From the NCBI RefSeq assembly GCF_003334355.1, contig NZ_QOWP01000030.1: a stretch of DNA of 45,643 nt; one strand, written 5' to 3'. Each line of letters begins with the position of its first letter. Within the stretch, counting starts at the first letter, position 1. Below the pieces are notes generated by a model, which was given only the letters and a program-made list of their open reading frames with translations, made no database searches and was not told the DNA's origin. A program made the position numbers and the translations under genes. This document shows positions 12,369-23,210 of this stretch, piece by piece. This DNA is from Escherichia coli (lineage in GTDB: Bacteria > Pseudomonadota > Gammaproteobacteria > Enterobacterales > Enterobacteriaceae).

Positions 12369-12519
12369 CCTTCGCTCCCTCATTATTTTCTCTTTGGTGT
12401 ATCGATACAGCATAAAGAAAGCCGGGCCAGGAAAAAATAACAGCAATCAAGGAAAAGGGGAAAATCAGCAATTTTCTGAAAGAGATGCCCTTTCCGGCTG
12501 CAAAGGGCATCATGGCAAA

Positions 12520-13581
12520 TCAGTTATAGTTAATCTTAAAAAGCACCACTGTATCGAAGGGCCCAGCCTCGATGGGGGTACCTGCAATGGACGAAAGTTC
12601 AGCTGTATAGGTTTTTTCGTAGATCAACATGTCACTGGTGAAATCGGCGTATTCAGCATATTTATTGAAGGTATAAGGCGAGGCGTTTTCATCCAGTAAA
12701 CGTAGCTTCAGACCATTACCAATCAACAATGCTTTATCTTCTTCAACCAACGTTTCTTCGGTATAAAAGGAGGAACTAACTTTAAATCCGTCGGTGCATT
12801 GGTCATTTTGTGATTTTGTCGTCTTAATACTGAATGTTTTCGACATTGTGTGGCGACGAATATCCAGCAAATTAAATTTACCAAAATCTATCACCTGTGT
12901 TTCCGGTGAAATGGAAAAATTGACGCTGCAATCCAGCACGCGAATGTTTTCCAGACCAGTAATATGATATTTCAGGTTTTGGGCGGTAGGATCTTCGTTA
13001 ACGCTACCGGCACCGTCAAATTGCACGACGATATAGTCGCTAAGCGTACTTTGATAATCATGCGGCGGCATTTCTCGTATTTTGACGTATAACCGCATGC
13101 GAGCGAGAAAGGTACGCGACATGTGAATATTAGCGGGATCGCCCGAACAAATTTTGTTCTGCCATCCCATCGCGATGATCTGCTCAGGGGTATAAATGTC
13201 AATGTTCTTACTGTCGATACACTGGTTAGTGTCGATGCGGCTTTTTCCCTGGTTGGCGTCATAATCAACGCCATTGTAAGTTACGCCGAGTTGATAATAG
13301 CGATCCTGCACCCCCGGGTAGGGGTTTACCCAGGCGTAGACATGCTCACTTTCAAAGTTGCCGTTGGTATTGTTGTCACAATAGACGGGAATTTTAATAT
13401 CGTCAGATTCCCAAATCTTATCGCCGGGTTTGGCATTGCCTGGTACAGCAAAAGGTTGAATCACTTCTGATTTTTCTACCGAACCACCGGATGAACCAAA
13501 GTAGCAGTTCAGGGCAAGCGCAGACTTCAACGGCAGAAATAACAGACAGATGACGAGCAACACTCCCTTGCCAGCACTCAT
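12520..13581 (-). CDS. ybgO: Fimbrial adhesin-like protein, last gene of a chaperone-usher operon
   Basis: 353 aa from the ATG at 13581 ([23 protein letters not shown], signal peptide), with GGAGG 7 nt upstream. The ATG overlaps the ybgP stop (ATGA). Confidence 0.85.
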
Positions 13582-14309
13582 TTCTTCGCCTCCACGGCTT
13601 GTAAACGGCATTCTCCGCTGCAGTTGAGCGTCGTCATGCGTAACGCGCCGTAATCATCCATATAACCGAGATAAAACTGGCTGCCGCTATAACTTCCGGT
13701 GTTTGTGTTGACCGTACTAAAAGGCGCAATCATCACGGTTTTGAAGCCGGGGAAAACGCCTTTTTCATTTCTCCCCAGATAGGCAATGGTCAGATAATAC
13801 GCGGTAGGATTTTTCAGTGTCAGTTGGTTGCCCTGCTGGCTAACCTGTAACTGCAGTTCGACCTTTTCTCCTGCTTTCTTGCGTAATGCAGCCGGTCGCC
13901 AGAACACCTTGATACGACTCTGAATGGCGACTTGCAGAACGGCATGGTCGCTGTTTTTTTCCGGGGCGGGAGGAATTTCACGCATATTGTAGAAAAATAG
14001 CGTTTCGCGATCGCCCGGTAATTTCGCGGTCGAGGCTTGCTTTACTATCCGCACCTGCGTTGTTGCTTTCGGTTCCAGACGTTGTATCGGTGGCAGGGCA
14101 ACCAGAAGATCATCGCTTTTCTCCCCTTTTTCATTTTCGAGCCAGGAATAAGCGAGGTAGGGGAGTTTATCGCTACGATTATCCACGCGCAGACTGGTAG
14201 CTTTATCATTAGCGTTAAACACAATACGAGTGAGATCGGGTTGTAGTGCAGCGTGGCTGCACAGACTGGCAACCAACAACAAAAGGGGTAGTCCTTTCAT
14301 AAATGTCAT
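13578..14309 (-). CDS. ybgP: Periplasmic fimbrial chaperone (PapD-like)
   Basis: Signal peptide followed by a chaperone-like fold sequence. Start is ambiguous among ATGs at 14315, 14309 and 14300; 14309 has the best AGGA spacing. Confidence 0.82.
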
Positions 14310-14323
14310 TTTCATTTCCTTAA

Positions 14324-16783
14324 TTAATGACAAGGTAAAATCAGGCGATTTGCGGTGTCTTCCATATGTTCAGGAAGATGGAGCGAGCAATGCTGACTAT
14401 CACCCCAGACCACGGTAAACTTTTGATTTTCAGCGACTCCGCTTAACCAGGCATGTCCTTCCTCGCCAACCATCCCCACGCTAATGCCGCTGTCATCCTG
14501 GCGGATATCCGCTCCGAGGGGAGGAAACTGACCGCTGGCGTTGCGAATGATGACGTTAACGTCTTTACCGGAACGGGAAGCCAGTGATTTGTAACCTATC
14601 GCGCCTTCAATCCACGTTTCTTTGATAACGTTTTCTGCAACTGTTACGCCGTCGGGTAAGTCATTCATGTTCACCGCCACGGTGGAAGGCTGGTAACTGG
14701 AAATCAACGGCACCACCGCAATGCCAAAATGGTTGGTGTAGTCGAGATTGCCCTGAACCGGAATATCTGCCACGCCATCGGTGCTGACCATCAGGCGTGG
14801 TTCATTGGTGGAGCTGCGGCGATGAAACGCTGCACCATATTGGGTTGCGGTGAAAGAACCGCTCCAGCTGCTGCTGACGGAACTGTAATCATTGGCGGCA
14901 TAGGTACCAGAAATATCCCACTCACCCGCTGAACTCAGGTGCTGATAGTTACCGCTCACCTGGGCTCCATTGTCAGGACGGTCGGATTGCAGTCCGGCAG
15001 ACATGCCCCAGCTATTACGTTCATCCAGCGTATCGTTCCACGACATGCGGTGTGTGGTGCTGTGGCTACTGTTTTGCATGTCATAGCCAACCCGACCACC
15101 GTTACCGAAGGGGAGCGAAATCGACAGGTAAATCTGGTTGTCGCGATCTTTATCTTCGTAATGGGTTGTATTGAATGACGTCGAAATAGAGATATCTCTC
15201 CAGTCACCAATATCAACATTAAAACCTGCCGTGATGTTGGCGGTCGTGGAGGCGTCTGCATTCCACCAGGTTTGATGTAGCAGGTTGGCGTAAAGATTGA
15301 GGTTTAGTGGGGTAATCGGTTGGCCCACAGATAAGCTGATCGTCTGTTTTTCGTCCTGCGCATCGCTGTCGTTGTATTTGTGATCCAGATAGTTGGCGTA
15401 GCTGTGAAAATGACGATCGGAGAAACGATAAGCGGCGAGGGAAATCGTGCTGTTAGTGGCATCCACTTGTTTGCTGTAATTAAAACGGTAGCTTAAGCCC
15501 CGCTCGTCCTGCTGAGTATCAAAATGGCTACTGGCCCACGTGACATCAAACGACAGCGCACCAAGCCACAGCATATTTTGCCCAATACCCATTGCGGCAG
15601 AATGGTAGTCATCACCAGAAAGCAGCAGGCCGCCGTACAGCGAGGTGTTTGACAGCATCCCCCAGGAAACTTCATTGCTAAAAAAGGTTTCATTTTCAGT
15701 TTGATGTGACATGGAGGGCCGTGGCTGACCCGCGGCCAGTTTATAGCGAACCTGTCCCTGACGAGTCAGGAAGGGCGTCGATGCTGCCGAAACCTGGAAA
15801 TTGTTCACCCGACCATCTTCTTCCGTCACTTTGACATCAAGCGTGCCCTGAACAGACTGATTGAGGTCATCAATAATAAACAGTCCCGGAGGGACTTTTT
15901 TCTGGTAAATGACGCGACCTGATTGACTGATCGTCACCGTGGCATTGGTCTGTGCAATACCGCTAATTTGTGGGGCGTATCCGCGTAGCTCCCATGGCAA
16001 CATTCGATCGTCACTCGCCAGTGCCGCGCCAGTATAAGAAAAACCATCGAAAATATTGGAACTGAAATCGGTTTCGCCGAGGGTTAATTTAGAGCCTAAT
16101 TGCGGTAATGGACGAAAAAGATAGGTGCGCGATATTCCGCCTGACTGTTCATGGCTATCTTCGCTATCGGTGTTATTAAGCTGGTAATCACTGCGTAAGC
16201 GCCATGACCCGGCGTTAATTCCGGTGGTACCGTAGGCGTTCAGGTTAGTGCTGCTGCTGCCGTCCTGTGGGCGGTAGTTGCTGGCAAACAGGTTATAATC
16301 CATCAGGACCCCGGCAACACCTTCTTTCCATGTAGAGGGGGGAGCCCAGTTTTCTGAGTGCCACGCCAGCCAGGCTTGCGGAATACTAATATTCAGTTGC
16401 TGATTGGCTTGATCGAAATTGAAGAGCATTTCAGGTCGGGAACTGAAATCAATACACCGATCTATCTGTGGCAAGGACTGACGGATATCTGGTTTTAAAC
16501 CAAATTTATCGACCAGTGAATCATTGATGCATGGAATGGTTTTGTCACCCTTTTTTTGCCAGTTGATTTTTTGCCCATTACTGATTTGGTTGTTATTCAC
16601 CGCAACGCTAACAAAATATTCACCGGGAGCAATGACTCCTTTTTCCTTTAATAATGAAATATCAATGCGGTCGCGCATTGATTTATCGAGAACATTCAGA
16701 TTAAATTCGACCGCCAATGCGCAAGGCATCGCCATGACCAGGCAGGATAGAAAAGAGAGTCGATAAATATTCACGGTGTCCAT
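14324..16783 (-). CDS. ybgQ: Outer-membrane fimbrial usher protein
   Basis: Large usher-like ORF of about 820 aa. The ATG at 16783 (MDTVNIYRLSF...) is preferred; the 833-codon track start at 16825 is a TTG placed upstream of a GC-rich hairpin. Confidence 0.85.
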   Translation of the reverse strand: MDTVNIYRLSFLSCLVMAMPCALAVEFNLNVLDKSMRDRIDISLLKEKGVIAPGEYFVSVAVNNNQISNGQKINWQKKGDKTIPCINDSLVDKFGLKPDIRQSLPQIDRCIDFSSRPEMLFNFDQANQQLNISIPQAWLAWHSENWAPPSTWKEGVAGVLMDYNLFASNYRPQDGSSSTNLNAYGTTGINAGSWRLRSDYQLNNTDSEDSHEQSGGISRTYLFRPLPQLGSKLTLGETDFSSNIFDGFSYTGAALASDDRMLPWELRGYAPQISGIAQTNATVTISQSGRVIYQKKVPPGLFIIDDLNQSVQGTLDVKVTEEDGRVNNFQVSAASTPFLTRQGQVRYKLAAGQPRPSMSHQTENETFFSNEVSWGMLSNTSLYGGLLLSGDDYHSAAMGIGQNMLWLGALSFDVTWASSHFDTQQDERGLSYRFNYSKQVDATNSTISLAAYRFSDRHFHSYANYLDHKYNDSDAQDEKQTISLSVGQPITPLNLNLYANLLHQTWWNADASTTANITAGFNVDIGDWRDISISTSFNTTHYEDKDRDNQIYLSISLPFGNGGRVGYDMQNSSHSTTHRMSWNDTLDERNSWGMSAGLQSDRPDNGAQVSGNYQHLSSAGEWDISGTYAANDYSSVSSSWSGSFTATQYGAAFHRRSSTNEPRLMVSTDGVADIPVQGNLDYTNHFGIAVVPLISSYQPSTVAVNMNDLPDGVTVAENVIKETWIEGAIGYKSLASRSGKDVNVIIRNASGQFPPLGADIRQDDSGISVGMVGEEGHAWLSGVAENQKFTVVWGDSQHCSLHLPEHMEDTANRLILPCH

Positions 16784-16833
16784 ACCTGATAAATATTTGA
16801 AGAAAGGCGGCGATAGCGCCGCCAAAGTAATAC

Positions 16834-17400
16834 TTATTTATAATCCAGCACGTAGGTCGCATTCGCTGTAACTGCGCCTGGCGTTACAGGTGTAGCCTGA
16901 TCAATTTGTTCCATCCAGGCAAAGAAATTCAGCGTTTGTTCGCTGGAGGTCGGAGCCAGGTCGATATCTGGAGTAGCGGTGCCTAAAACGATATTGCTTT
17001 GATCTTTATTCATTAAACGTACGCCGACGCCGGTGGCTTCACCCGTGCTGGTGTTGTTGAGAATCGGATCTGCGCCGGTGGTTTTCGCTGAGCTATCAAA
17101 GGTGACTGCAACTTTAGAAATCTTGCCACCGGAACCGTTGCTGGAGTTTTCCAGATCACAGTTGACTAAGCGCAGGTCGACAGCAACGGCATCGCTGTGA
17201 TGTGACTGATTAATGTGGCTGGTGGTCACCTGACCGAGTTCAACCTCTTTATCAATATCATCCTGATGTATTTCACACGGTGCTTCAATAACTTCACCTT
17301 TAAAGTGAATTTCACCGGATCCTTCATCAGCTGCATAAACAGGTGCAGTGAATAGCAGAGATATGGCCAGAGCGGTCAATGTTTTTTGTCCTTTAAACAT
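16834..17400 (-). CDS. ybgD: Fimbrial major subunit-like protein
   Basis: 188 aa from the ATG at 17400 (MFKGQKTLTALAISLLFTAPVYA, signal peptide), with AAGGA 8 nt upstream. First gene of the ybgD-Q-P-O operon. Confidence 0.88.
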   Translation of the reverse strand: MFKGQKTLTALAISLLFTAPVYAADEGSGEIHFKGEVIEAPCEIHQDDIDKEVELGQVTTSHINQSHHSDAVAVDLRLVNCDLENSSNGSGGKISKVAVTFDSSAKTTGADPILNNTSTGEATGVGVRLMNKDQSNIVLGTATPDIDLAPTSSEQTLNFFAWMEQIDQATPVTPGAVTANATYVLDYK

Positions 17401-17727
17401 AACTGAGTCCTTTAAATAATGAGATAGAGTGTTGCGTGGCAAGAATATATAAAATGACAATTGAATGTATTTGGTTTTATTTAATAATATTAAAAAGCTT
17501 GTGATATAAAGAATGGAATAATTGAGTGCATAAATTTATTGTTTAATGAGATGAAGGATGGGGTGGGATGGATATGCATAATTTTCATTGGGTTAACAAT
17601 GTTACCGGCAGGGAAGTATAAAAATAAACTTATCATTCTGCTCAGTATGTGACTTGTCTCATTTTTTCACCTTATTAATGGGTATTTGCATCTGGTTTAA
17701 TTTTTACAATTTTTTATGTTCAGCCAT

Positions 17728-17759
17728 ATAAAAAAGAACCCGCTCTATTAAAGGCGGGT
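17728..17759 (-). terminator. Putative intrinsic terminator downstream of gltA
   Basis: On the minus strand: ACCCGC stem, 10-nt loop, GCGGGT, then UCUUUUUU. Lies 30 nt past the gltA stop. Confidence 0.5.
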
Positions 17760-17789
17760 CCGGAAAGTAAACGGCTTAGCAATCAATCA

Positions 17790-19073
17790 TTAACGCTTGA
17801 TATCGCTTTTAAAGTCGCGTTTTTCATATCCTGTATACAGCTGACGCGGACGGGCAATCTTCATACCGTCACTGTGCATCTCGCTCCAGTGGGCGATCCA
17901 GCCAACGGTACGTGCCATTGCGAAAATGACGGTGAACATGGAAGACGGAATACCCATCGCTTTCAGGATGATACCAGAGTAGAAATCGACGTTCGGGTAC
18001 AGTTTCTTCTCGATAAAGTACGGGTCGTTCAGCGCGATGTTTTCCAGCTCCATAGCCACTTCCAGCAGGTCATCCTTCGTGCCCAGCTCTTTCAGCACTT
18101 CATGGCAGGTTTCACGCATTACGGTGGCGCGCGGGTCGTAATTTTTGTACACGCGGTGACCGAAGCCCATCAGGCGGAAAGAATCATTTTTATCTTTCGC
18201 ACGACGAACAAATTCCGGAATGTGTTTAACGGAGCTGATTTCTTCCAGCATTTTCAGCGCTGCTTCGTTAGCACCACCGTGCGCAGGTCCCCACAGTGAA
18301 GCAATACCTGCTGCGATACAGGCAAACGGGTTCGCACCCGAAGAGCCAGCGGTACGCACGGTGGAGGTGGAGGCGTTCTGTTCATGGTCAGCGTGCAGGA
18401 TCAAAATACGGTCCATAGCACGTTCCAGAATCGGATTAACTTCATACGGTTCGCACGGCGTAGAGAACATCATATTCAGGAAGTTACCGGCGTAGGAGAG
18501 ATCGTTGCGCGGGTAAACAAATGGCTGACCAATGGAATACTTGTAACACATCGCTGCCATGGTCGGCATTTTCGACAGCAGGCGGAACGCGGCAATTTCA
18601 CGATGACGAGGATTGTTAACATCCAGCGAGTCGTGATAGAACGCCGCCAGCGCGCCGGTAATACCACACATGACTGCCATTGGATGTGAGTCGCGACGGA
18701 AAGCGTGGAACAGACGGGTAATCTGCTCGTGGATCATGGTATGACGGGTCACCGTAGTTTTAAATTCGTCATACTGTTCCTGAGTCGGTTTTTCACCATT
18801 CAGCAGGATGTAACAAACTTCCAGGTAGTTAGAATCGGTCGCCAGCTGATCGATCGGGAAACCGCGGTGCAGCAAAATACCTTCATCACCATCAATAAAA
18901 GTAATTTTAGATTCGCAGGATGCGGTTGAAGTGAAGCCAGGGTCAAAGGTGAACACACCTTTTGAACCGAGAGTACGGATATCAATAACATCTTGACCCA
19001 GCGTGCCTTTCAGCACATCCAGTTCAACAGCTGTGTCCCCGTTGAGGGTGAGTTTTGCTTTTGTATCAGCCAT
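17790..19073 (-). CDS. gltA: Citrate synthase (type II)
   Basis: 427-aa ORF; translation recognised as E. coli citrate synthase. Confidence 0.97.
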
Positions 19074-22293: not shown

Positions 22294-23010
22294 ATGAGAC
22301 TCGAGTTTTCAATTTATCGCTATAACCCGGATGTTGATGATGCTCCGCGTATGCAGGATTACACCCTGGAAGCGGAAGAAGGTCGCGACATGATGTTGCT
22401 GGATGCGCTTATCCAGCTGAAAGAGAAAGATCCCAGCCTGTCGTTCCGCCGCTCCTGCCGTGAAGGTGTGTGCGGTTCCGACGGTCTGAACATGAACGGC
22501 AAGAATGGTCTGGCCTGTATTACCCCGATTTCGGCACTCAACCAGCCGGGCAAGAAGATTGTGATTCGCCCGCTGCCAGGTTTACCGGTGATCCGCGATT
22601 TGGTGGTAGACATGGGACAATTCTATGCGCAATATGAGAAAATTAAGCCTTACCTGTTGAATAATGGACAAAATCCGCCAGCTCGCGAGCATTTACAGAT
22701 GCCAGAGCAGCGCGAAAAACTCGACGGGCTGTATGAATGTATTCTCTGCGCATGTTGTTCAACCTCTTGTCCGTCTTTCTGGTGGAATCCCGATAAGTTT
22801 ATCGGCCCGGCAGGCTTGTTAGCGGCATATCGTTTCCTGATCGATAGCCGTGATACCGAGACTGACAGCCGCCTCGACGGTTTGAGCGATGCATTCAGTG
22901 TATTCCGCTGTCACAGCATCATGAACTGCGTCAGTGTATGTCCGAAGGGGCTGAACCCGACGCGCGCCATCGGCCATATCAAGTCGATGTTGTTGCAACG
23001 TAATGCGTAA
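22294..23010 (+). CDS. sdhB: Succinate dehydrogenase iron-sulfur subunit
   Basis: 238-aa ORF with cysteine clusters CRxGxCGSDG and CILCACCSTSCP. Confidence 0.97.
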   Translation: MRLEFSIYRYNPDVDDAPRMQDYTLEAEEGRDMMLLDALIQLKEKDPSLSFRRSCREGVCGSDGLNMNGKNGLACITPISALNQPGKKIVIRPLPGLPVIRDLVVDMGQFYAQYEKIKPYLLNNGQNPPAREHLQMPEQREKLDGLYECILCACCSTSCPSFWWNPDKFIGPAGLLAAYRFLIDSRDTETDSRLDGLSDAFSVFRCHSIMNCVSVCPKGLNPTRAIGHIKSMLLQRNA

Positions 23011-23210
23011 TTAAATGTTGATGCCGGGGAAATCCCCCGGCTATTCAGGAAATCTTTAAAAACTGCCCCTGACACTAAGACAGTTTTTAAAGGTTCCTTC
23101 GCGAGCCACTACGTAGACAAGAGCTCGCAAGTGAACCCCGGCACGCACATCACTGTGCGTGGTAGTATCCACGGCGAAGTAAGCATAAAAAAGATGCTTA
23201 AGGGATCACG

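What the first reader, a model, noticed from the sequence alone, without database searches (positions are those of the whole stretch)
16806..16823. GC-rich hairpin between the major subunit gene and the usher gene
GGCGGCG-ATAG-CGCCGCC (7-bp GC stem), read on the minus strand, is followed by UUUCUUCAAAUAUUU and then the ybgQ ATG at 16783. This resembles the intra-operon attenuators that set subunit to usher stoichiometry in other fimbrial operons. It also argues against the TTG at 16825 as the ybgQ start.
Basis: partly seen in the sequence, partly recalled or inferred. Interest (0 to 1): 0.35.

Follow-up and report, generated by a model that had tools for sequence, protein, structure and literature searches.

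The report
Leaky terminator hairpin after ybgD pilin gene
A small, conserved GC-rich RNA hairpin sits right after the main fimbrial subunit gene of the E. coli ybg operon; it is an ordinary example of the leaky stop signal that lets such operons make much subunit and little assembly machinery.

Summary
The hairpin is real. On the minus strand, 16823..16806 reads GGCGGCG-CUAU-CGCCGCC (7 G-C pairs, -13.1 kcal/mol). It is followed directly by UUUCUUCAAAUAUUU. It lies in the 50-nt gap between the ybgD stop (16834) and the ybgQ ATG (16783).

It is not chance: about 3e-4 such hairpins are expected per 50 nt. Across 10 ybg alleles the 12 core stem bases are almost invariant, while the rest of the gap varies freely (p=0.006). 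The seventh pair shows one compensatory G-C to U-A change, and one allele has a G.U wobble. The three U right after the stem never vary.

The same layout occurs in all nine chaperone-usher operons I examined (ybg, fim, yad, sfm, elf, yeh, yra, yfc, pap). The junction after the first subunit gene always holds the most stable hairpin. YbgQ is closest to PapC, and partial termination between papA and papH is published.

Best reading: a leaky intrinsic terminator that also protects the mRNA 3' end, giving more ybgD than ybgQPO message. This function is inferred. The U-tract is weak, and no 3'-end data exist for this silent operon.

The TTG at 16825 is not the ybgQ start: two alleles carry in-frame stops in the loop.

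Ordinary; a new member of a known kind.

The parts
16834..17400 (-). ybgD, the major fimbrial subunit gene (188 aa from the ATG at 17400; stop TAA at 16836..16834)
   Evidence: ORF and sequence. RefSeq annotates the gene as a fimbrial protein / ybgD in allelic loci. NCBIfam fimbrial-protein models match it.
16806..16823 (-). Terminator-type hairpin GGCGGCG-CUAU-CGCCGCC (7 G-C pairs, tetraloop, -13.1 kcal/mol)
   Evidence: Across 10 alleles only 1 of 12 core stem columns varies, and that change gives a G.U pair. The seventh pair is G-C in 7 alleles, U-A in 1 and unpaired in 2.
16791..16805 (-). U-rich tail UUUCUUCAAAUAUUU. The first three U (16805..16803) are invariant; the distal part varies.
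   Evidence: Alignment A3. The tail score nT is 2.5-3.3, which gives borderline d-scores of -3 to +19 (the formula was recalled from memory).
16765..16798 (-). Second, weaker hairpin AAAUAUUUAU-CAGGUAUGGACACC-GUGAAUAUUU. It encloses the Shine-Dalgarno-like CAGG, the ATG at 16783 and the GTG at 16774 of ybgQ.
   Evidence: RNAalifold consensus on 10 alleles. Folding gives -7.3 kcal/mol, z -2.2. The 91-nt region folds as two hairpins with z -3.1. Its 3' arm is coding, so conservation there is ambiguous.
14324..16783 (-). ybgQ, the usher gene (819 aa from the ATG at 16783; the GTG at 16774 is an alternative start; the TTG at 16825 is rejected)
   Evidence: PGAP start. NCBIfam usher models match it. 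It is 37% identical to PapC. In-frame stops lie upstream of the ATG in two alleles.
13578..14309 (-). ybgP, periplasmic chaperone gene
   Evidence: RefSeq annotation mapped from L001. NCBIfam chaperone models match it.
12520..13581 (-). ybgO, the last fimbrial-protein gene of the operon
   Evidence: RefSeq annotation mapped from L001; ORF list. It has no NCBIfam hit.
12484..12511 (-). Hairpin at the operon end, GAUGCCCUUU-GCAGCCGG-AAAGGGCAUC, then UCUUUCAG
   Evidence: Sequence. The surrounding 56 nt (12525..12470) fold at -19.9 kcal/mol, z -3.4.

Best explanation
The hairpin with its adjoining UUU is a weak (leaky) Rho-independent terminator at the 3' end of the ybgD cistron. It lies inside the ybgD-ybgQ-ybgP-ybgO chaperone-usher fimbrial operon of E. 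coli.

Proposed mechanism (inferred):
- When the operon is transcribed from the promoter upstream of ybgD, a fraction of RNA polymerases release at or just after the U run.
- This yields a short ybgD-only mRNA whose 3' stem-loop also protects it from 3'-to-5' exonucleases.
- The remaining polymerases read through into ybgQPO.
- The result is more message for the polymerised subunit than for the usher, chaperone and tip protein.
- A second, weaker hairpin that buries the ybgQ ribosome-binding region and start codons probably lowers usher translation further.

Shown here:
- the structure and its position;
- its non-random occurrence;
- its conservation with structure-preserving changes;
- the same architecture in eight other operons, including pap.

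Inferred, not shown: actual termination at this site, its efficiency, and its effect on stoichiometry.
For: - Anatomy fits an intrinsic terminator: a 7-bp G-C stem, a 4-nt loop, U directly abutting the stem, 10 nt after a stop codon, in the sense orientation.
- It is not chance: 3.4e-4 such hairpins are expected per 50 nt.
- It is a single-copy locus element. It is present in 3772 of the 3774 E. coli genomes that carry the locus.
- Conservation: 1 of 12 core stem columns varies against 21 of 38 elsewhere in the gap (Fisher p=0.006). In Escherichia sp. E1V33, the upstream spacer is 3/10 identical and the loop 1/4 (by eye from the alignment), and neighbouring DNA is about 77% identical. There the stem core is still 12/12 and the closing pair changed G-C to U-A.
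- Allele L020 has C to U in the stem, giving a G.U pair.
- The three proximal U never vary.
- No promoter-like site lies between the hairpin and ybgQ.
- In 9 of 9 chaperone-usher operons the strongest hairpin follows the first subunit gene.
- The pap homologue has a 14-bp hairpin followed by UUUCU. Published work reports partial termination there (PMC6524683) and an RNase-resistant 3' terminator structure on papA mRNA (PMC5927463).
- In K-12, a Term-seq 'primary' fimA 3' end lies in the fimA-fimI gap just 3' of its hairpin (PMC7815308 supplement). fimI mRNA is about 2.5-fold lower than fimA mRNA (PMC9277811).
Against: - No experimental 3' end for ybgD was found in the Term-seq supplements that could be searched. 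The operon is silent in laboratory culture, so this absence is uninformative.
- The U-tract is poor. Only 3-4 consecutive U are present, and 4-5 U in the first 8 nt. The distal part is not conserved as U-rich.
- d'Aubenton-Carafa-type scores are near threshold: +13 for this window and -3 for the K-12 allele.
- Formal covariation is not significant. Five of seven pairs never vary, and 86 of 500 shuffles reach the observed score. The evidence for structure is therefore mostly sequence conservation.
- The K-12 and E69 alleles have lost the seventh pair (6-bp stem, 6-nt loop).
Confidence: 0.66

Rival explanations
1. The hairpin is mainly an RNA-stability element. Polymerase reads through; the polycistronic RNA is cut downstream (for example by RNase E in the AU-rich AAAUAUUUAU stretch) or ends diffusely. 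Exonucleases then trim back to the stem. This yields a stable ybgD message with little true termination.
For: - The U-tract is weak and variable, and terminator scores are borderline.
- Several paralogous junction hairpins (fimA, elfA, ygiL) have no U run. Even so, fimA has a defined 3' end at its hairpin.
- Differential decay is documented for the papBA and cfaAB fimbrial messages (PMC5927463).
- The linker after the hairpin contains sequences that fit the RN|WUU RNase E motif. It also resembles the pap linker (shuffle p about 0.003).
Against: - The three U that abut the stem are invariant in all 10 alleles, which an exonuclease barrier does not need.
- The pap homologue is reported to terminate partially (PMC6524683).
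- The two mechanisms are not exclusive.
Confidence: 0.22
2. The hairpin is a full terminator. ybgD would then be monocistronic, and ybgQPO would be silent or transcribed from its own promoter.
For: - It is the strongest terminator-like site on this strand in 9 kb.
- Many strains keep ybgD and the hairpin while ybgQ is broken: IS1 insertions in L006 and L018, and an internal stop in L020.
Against: - Only 22 nt separate the stem from the ATG, and no promoter-like site lies there.
- The U-tract is too weak for efficient termination.
- A subunit without usher and chaperone cannot be assembled (established chaperone-usher biology).
- ybgQPO is intact in this window.
Confidence: 0.06
3. The sequence is a neutral palindrome, a repeat-element remnant (REP-like), or a DNA site for a dimeric protein. 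It would have no role in RNA.
For: - Five of seven pairs are invariant, so conservation of the sequence itself (GGCGGC/GCCGCC) cannot be formally separated from conservation of pairing.
Against: - The chance expectation is 3.4e-4.
- It is single-copy per genome.
- It is unlike the true REP elements of this window at 27332..27513.
- Rfam finds nothing.
- The G-C to U-A and G-C to G.U changes preserve pairing but not sequence.
- Unrelated sequences form hairpins at the same position in eight other operons.
Confidence: 0.04

Closest known systems
Partial Rho-independent terminator between papA and papH in the pap (P pilus) operon of uropathogenic E. coli (Baga et al. 1985, as summarised in PMC6524683; the 3' terminator structure of papA mRNA is described in PMC5927463)
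   Same: - The position is the same: directly after the major subunit gene and ahead of the assembly genes.
- It is a hairpin followed by UUUCU.
- The ushers are related: YbgQ is 37% identical to PapC.
- The gene order is the same (subunit, usher, chaperone).
- The linker after the hairpin is similar: UUUCU..CA...UAUUUAUCA (shuffle p about 0.003).
   Different: - The pap stem is longer and AU-richer (14 bp, UAAACAGCGGAA/UUCCGCUGUUUA). The ybg stem is 7 bp and pure G-C.
- In pap the next gene is the minor subunit papH. In ybg the usher follows directly, only 22 nt after the stem.
- pap has the upstream papB cistron and RNase E processing; ybg has no such cistron.
- The pap terminator has been tested experimentally; the ybg one has not.
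Hairpins after the first subunit gene in other E. coli chaperone-usher operons (fimA-fimI, yadN-yadV, sfmA-sfmC, elfA-elfD, yehD-yehC, yraH-yraI, yfcV-yfcU, ygiL-yqiG)
   Same: - Each has its longest intercistronic gap and its most stable local structure at this junction.
- yehD, yraH and yadN have U runs after the stem.
- The fimA junction has a mapped RNA 3' end.
   Different: - The sequences are unrelated, apart from a short TATCAGG motif shared with yad and yra.
- The ybg gap is the shortest (50 nt against 64-219).
- In most of the others the next gene is a chaperone or a minor subunit, not the usher.
Canonical strong intrinsic terminators, for example the gltA terminator in this same window (stem 17761..17736, then U6)
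   Same: A GC-rich stem-loop followed by U, located just after a stop codon.
   Different: The gltA terminator has six consecutive U and ends a transcription unit. The ybgD element has three U and then mixed sequence, and it lies inside an operon.

Membership tests
Intrinsic (Rho-independent) transcription terminator | GC-rich stem of about 5-14 bp with a 3-8 nt loop | tested here: met
   The stem has 7 G-C pairs and a 4-nt loop, at -13.1 kcal/mol. In other alleles it has 6-7 pairs.
Intrinsic (Rho-independent) transcription terminator | A U-rich tract of about 7-9 nt immediately 3' of the stem | tested here: inconclusive
   UUU abuts the stem in all 10 alleles. Only 4-5 of the first 8 nt are U, and the distal part varies. 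Scores sit near threshold.
Intrinsic (Rho-independent) transcription terminator | Sense orientation, downstream of a stop codon, outside coding sequence | tested here: met
   The stem starts 10 nt after the ybgD TAA. The upstream extension of ybgQ is not coding.
Intrinsic (Rho-independent) transcription terminator | RNA 3' ends map to the U-tract in vivo, or polymerase releases there in vitro | not testable with these tools
   The searchable Term-seq supplements have no ybgD entry. The operon is not expressed in laboratory culture, so this is no evidence either way.
Pap-type intra-operon attenuator after the major fimbrial subunit gene | Lies between the major subunit gene and the assembly genes of a chaperone-usher operon | tested here: met
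   The order is ybgD (subunit), hairpin, ybgQ (usher), ybgP (chaperone), ybgO.
Pap-type intra-operon attenuator after the major fimbrial subunit gene | Downstream genes depend on read-through (no promoter of their own) | tested here: inconclusive
   No sigma-70-like site is found in the 22 nt before ybgQ or nearby on the minus strand. A consensus scan cannot exclude a promoter.
Pap-type intra-operon attenuator after the major fimbrial subunit gene | Two transcript classes (a short subunit mRNA in excess over the long operon mRNA) | not testable with these tools
   This needs a Northern blot, Term-seq or long-read RNA sequencing under inducing conditions.
Pap-type intra-operon attenuator after the major fimbrial subunit gene | The operon belongs to the same fimbrial lineage as pap | tested here: met
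   YbgQ against PapC gives 37% identity and 492 bits. Against FimD it gives 28% and 275 bits. The best NCBIfam matches are StdB, Stf and Ste ushers. The gene order is also that of pap: subunit, then usher, then chaperone.
REP/BIME repetitive extragenic palindrome | Many copies per genome with the REP consensus | tested here: not met
   There is one place per genome. The sequence differs from the REP copies at 27332..27513 in this window.
Any Rfam family | Covariance-model match | tested here: not met
   Only sub-threshold chance matches were found.

The most novel reading that the evidence does not exclude
The ybgD-ybgQ gap may be a conserved two-tier throttle that is shared by descent with pap. 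Tier one is the leaky terminator. Tier two is a linker (UUUCU..UAUUUAUCA) that serves as an RNase E entry site and also forms the 5' arm of a hairpin burying the usher start codons. The AU-rich linker can pair either upstream with the ybgD stop-codon region or downstream with ybgQ codons 4-7. Ribosomes finishing ybgD could therefore influence usher translation.
Probability: 0.12. Interest if true: 0.35.

Novelty: new member of a known kind. Interest (0 to 1): 0.15.

Why it matters
- **Operon model and gene start.** The result tidies the model of a widespread but cryptic E. coli fimbrial operon. It fixes the ybgQ start: not the TTG at 16825, but the ATG at 16783 or the GTG at 16774.
- **Generality.** Every E. 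coli chaperone-usher operon examined places a hairpin after its first subunit gene. This is consistent with the textbook idea that subunit excess over usher is set at the RNA level.
- **Practical use.** Anyone expressing ybg fimbriae from a foreign promoter should keep or remove this element deliberately.
- **No new mechanism.** The finding does not open any new mechanism.

Tried and rejected
- **Rfam** search of 16000..18000 at a permissive threshold gave only chance hits.
- **Term-seq supplements.**
  - Adams 2021 has no ybgD or ybgQ entries. It does list fimA, so the absence reflects a silent operon.
  - The TERMITe supplements contain none of ybgD, ybgQ or gltA, so they are uninformative.
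  - No supplements are held for Dar & Sorek 2018 or for PMC9023263.
- **Wider orthologues.** The genome-contig scan with YbgQ returned three loci: E. coli E69, Escherichia sp. E1V33, and a record titled Collinsella sp. MAG whose sequence here is identical to the K-12 allele. Deep covariation analysis was therefore impossible.
- **Formal covariation** on 10 alleles is not significant.
- **Lower stem.** I considered an AU-rich lower stem pairing the stop-codon region with AAAUAUUUAU. The consensus fold across alleles prefers the downstream start-region hairpin instead.
- **REP element, chance palindrome, bidirectional terminator.** All rejected. The plus-strand reading is followed by AAAGTAATAC, which has no U run.
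- **TTG at 16825 as the ybgQ start.** Rejected.
- **Literature access.** Several searches failed for lack of server slots. Jordi 1993 (PMC206977) is not held.

Full report
**Observation**

The window is E. coli chromosome covering abrB, ybgOPQD, gltA, sdhCDAB-sucABCD and on to tol-pal. Its ybgD-ybgQ junction (401 nt) is 99.8% identical to BL21 and 89.8% to K-12.

On the minus strand:
- ybgD ends with TAA at 16836..16834.
- Ten nucleotides later comes GGCGGCG-CUAU-CGCCGCC (16823..16806).
- Then UUUCUUCAAAUAUUU.
- Then AUCAGGU.
- Then AUG at 16783 and GUG at 16774.

The loop on the minus strand is CUAU, not AUAG. The terminator scan lists this site first of 19 in 9 kb. The hairpin alone folds at -13.1 kcal/mol.

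**Chance**

The whole window holds three perfect all-GC 7-bp hairpins with a 3-8 nt loop. Simulation expects 0.31 per window, or 3.4e-4 in a 50-nt target. The other two are:
- 23023..23041, which lies 13 nt after the sdhB stop;
- 44248..44264, which lies early in cpoB, just after pal.

**Conservation**

- The locus is present in 3774 of 5426 complete E. coli genomes, once per genome (two places at most). The 76-nt junction is covered in 3772 of them.
- I aligned 10 distinct alleles, including E. coli E69 and Escherichia sp. E1V33, whose usher is 84% identical in protein.
- Only 1 of 12 core stem columns varies, and that change is C to U, giving G.U in L020. In the rest of the intergenic region 21 of 38 columns vary (Fisher p=0.006).
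- The seventh (closing) pair is G-C in seven alleles and U-A in E1V33, which is compensatory. It is unpaired in K-12 (A/C) and E69 (G/A), leaving a 6-bp stem and a 6-nt loop.
- Loop bases differ in most alleles.
- The three U next to the stem are invariant. What follows is not: UUUCUUC, UUUCAUA, UUUCCUC, UUUCACA, UUUCUGC, UUUUGCG.
- The formal covariation test is not significant, because five pairs never vary (86 of 500 shuffles reach the observed score). The evidence is therefore conservation plus two structure-preserving changes, not covariation proper.
- Rfam has nothing here.

**Is it a good terminator?**

I used a d'Aubenton-Carafa-type score with ViennaRNA energies; the formula was recalled from memory. 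The alleles score between -3 (K-12) and +19 (L004), and this window scores +13. That is close to the decision threshold. It is what one expects of a leaky terminator. For comparison, the gltA terminator 900 nt upstream has six consecutive U.

**Context and comparison**

- NCBIfam identifies YbgD as a fimbrial subunit, YbgQ as an usher (nearest StdB, Stf and Ste) and YbgP as a chaperone.
- YbgQ is 37% identical to PapC and 28% to FimD. The gene order subunit-usher-chaperone is that of pap.
- I fetched eight other chaperone-usher operons: fim, yad, sfm, elf, yeh, yra and yfc from a K-12 genome, and pap from CFT073.
- For every intercistronic junction I computed the most stable 40-nt local fold. 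In 9 of 9 operons the junction after the first subunit gene is the most stable. The mean is -16.2 kcal/mol against -5.1 for 36 other junctions (Mann-Whitney p=2.6e-6). It is also the longest gap in eight of the nine; pap is the exception. Longer gaps give more windows to sample, but the hairpins are plain in the sequences.
- ygiL, fetched from the same K-12 genome, also has a hairpin after its subunit gene.
- The papA-papH gap folds as a 14-bp hairpin followed by UUUCUCAGGGUAUUUAUCAUG.

**Published evidence on related operons**

- Partial termination between papA and papH reduces downstream transcripts (PMC6524683, citing Baga et al. 1985).
- In K-12, Term-seq maps a 'primary' fimA 3' end at 4543708. 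This lies inside the fimA-fimI gap, just 3' of its hairpin (PMC7815308 supplement).
- fimI mRNA is about 2.5-fold lower than fimA mRNA (PMC9277811).
- No 3' end is listed for ybgD, yadN, yehD or elfA. This fits operons that are not expressed in culture and says nothing about the element.

**Start codon**

The mechanical ORF begins at the TTG at 16825, which overlaps the first stem base. Translating the same frame in other alleles gives an in-frame TAG in the loop in E69, and TAA and TGA in E1V33. No other start codon lies before the ATG. The TTG extension is therefore not coding.

ATG at 16783 and GTG at 16774 are both invariant across alleles. PGAP uses the ATG. The AGG of CAGG lies 1 nt from the ATG and 10 nt from the GTG, so Shine-Dalgarno geometry slightly favours the GTG. 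I leave this open.

**A second structure**

RNAalifold and single-sequence folds put AAAUAUUUAU (16798..16789) in a stem with GUGAAUAUUU (16774..16765). This stem encloses CAGG, the AUG and the GUG (-7.3 kcal/mol, z -2.2). The 91-nt region folds as two hairpins with z about -3. Two A-to-G changes keep pairing as G.U, while E1V33 breaks two pairs. The 3' arm is coding, so its conservation is ambiguous. It may lower usher translation; this is an inference.

**Conclusion**

The finding is a genuine, selected hairpin of a well-known kind. It is most likely a leaky intrinsic terminator and 3'-end protector after the major subunit gene, homologous in position to the papA-papH terminator.

Confidence:
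- about 0.66 for leaky termination;
- about 0.22 that it acts mainly through RNA stability;
- small residues for a full stop or for no function.

It has not, as far as I could find, been described for ybg, but it adds no new principle.

Noticed in passing
window 16765..16798 (-): A second hairpin encloses the Shine-Dalgarno-like CAGG and both candidate ybgQ start codons (ATG at 16783, GTG at 16774). It folds at -7.3 kcal/mol and is predicted in the consensus of 10 alleles.
   Followed up: partly
window 16860..17790 (-), compared with L002, L007, L009: The gltA-ybgD intergenic (promoter) region and the mature part of ybgD are hypervariable between E. coli lineages (51-86% identity to K-12). Flanking gltA is 97-100% identical and ybgQ 93-100%. 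The ybgD ribosome-binding site and signal peptide stay conserved. This looks like allelic diversification of the major subunit.
   Followed up: partly
L006 3197..3260; L018 1592..2400: There are two independent IS1 insertions at this junction. In L006, IS1 sits two bases after the hairpin (..GCCGCCTT|GGTGATGCTGCC) and ybgQ, ybgP and part of ybgO are deleted. In L018, IS1 sits in the 5' part of ybgQ. L020 has an internal stop in ybgQ. ybgD and the hairpin are retained in all three.
   Followed up: no
window 16785..16791 (-); L011 6704 (-); L015 9430 (+); L021 31896..31925 (-): The motif TATCAGG(T/G) lies between the hairpin and the next gene in ybg, yad and yra. The ybg and pap linkers share TTTCT..CA...TATTTATCA (shuffle p about 0.003; ybg against yad 0.016). 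This could be a shared ribosome-binding or RNase E region, or chance after multiple tests.
   Followed up: partly
window 23023..23041 (+): A perfect 7-bp GC hairpin, GCCGGGG-AAATC-CCCCGGC, lies 13 nt after the sdhB stop (23010) and before sucA (23211). The 56-nt stretch around it (23005..23060) folds at -17.9 kcal/mol. No U run follows. It is another intra-operon hairpin, here in sdhCDAB-sucABCD.
   Followed up: no
window 44248..44264 (+): A perfect 7-bp GC hairpin, GCGGCCC-CCT-GGGCCGC, followed by TTTTGCTCAG lies inside the first 70 nt of the cpoB (ybgF) reading frame, just after pal. It looks like a terminator inside coding sequence.
   Followed up: no
window 27332..27550 (+) and 5633 (-): REP/BIME-type repeats (GCCTGATG.GACG...CGTCTTATCAGGCCTAC) occur in three tandem copies just upstream of sucC. 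They are unrelated in sequence to the ybgD hairpin.
   Followed up: no
L001 3646..4167, compared with window 16834..17400: Strain PSS-12 is identical to the window in the 401 nt around the hairpin. Its annotated ybgD is 45 nt (15 codons) shorter than the window's: 173 aa against 188 aa.
   Followed up: partly
L008 (record titled MAG: Collinsella sp.): A 3.2-kb contig assigned to a Collinsella metagenome bin carries K-12-type E. coli ybgD-ybgQ (usher match 98% identical to the window's; the junction sequence is identical to the K-12 allele). This is probably binning contamination.
   Followed up: no
window 12484..12511 (-): The end of the operon after ybgO has a 10-bp hairpin. The 56-nt stretch around it (12525..12470) folds at -19.9 kcal/mol, z -3.4. 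Its tail UCUUUCAG is poor in U. So the terminal signal of the operon also looks like a weak intrinsic terminator.
   Followed up: partly
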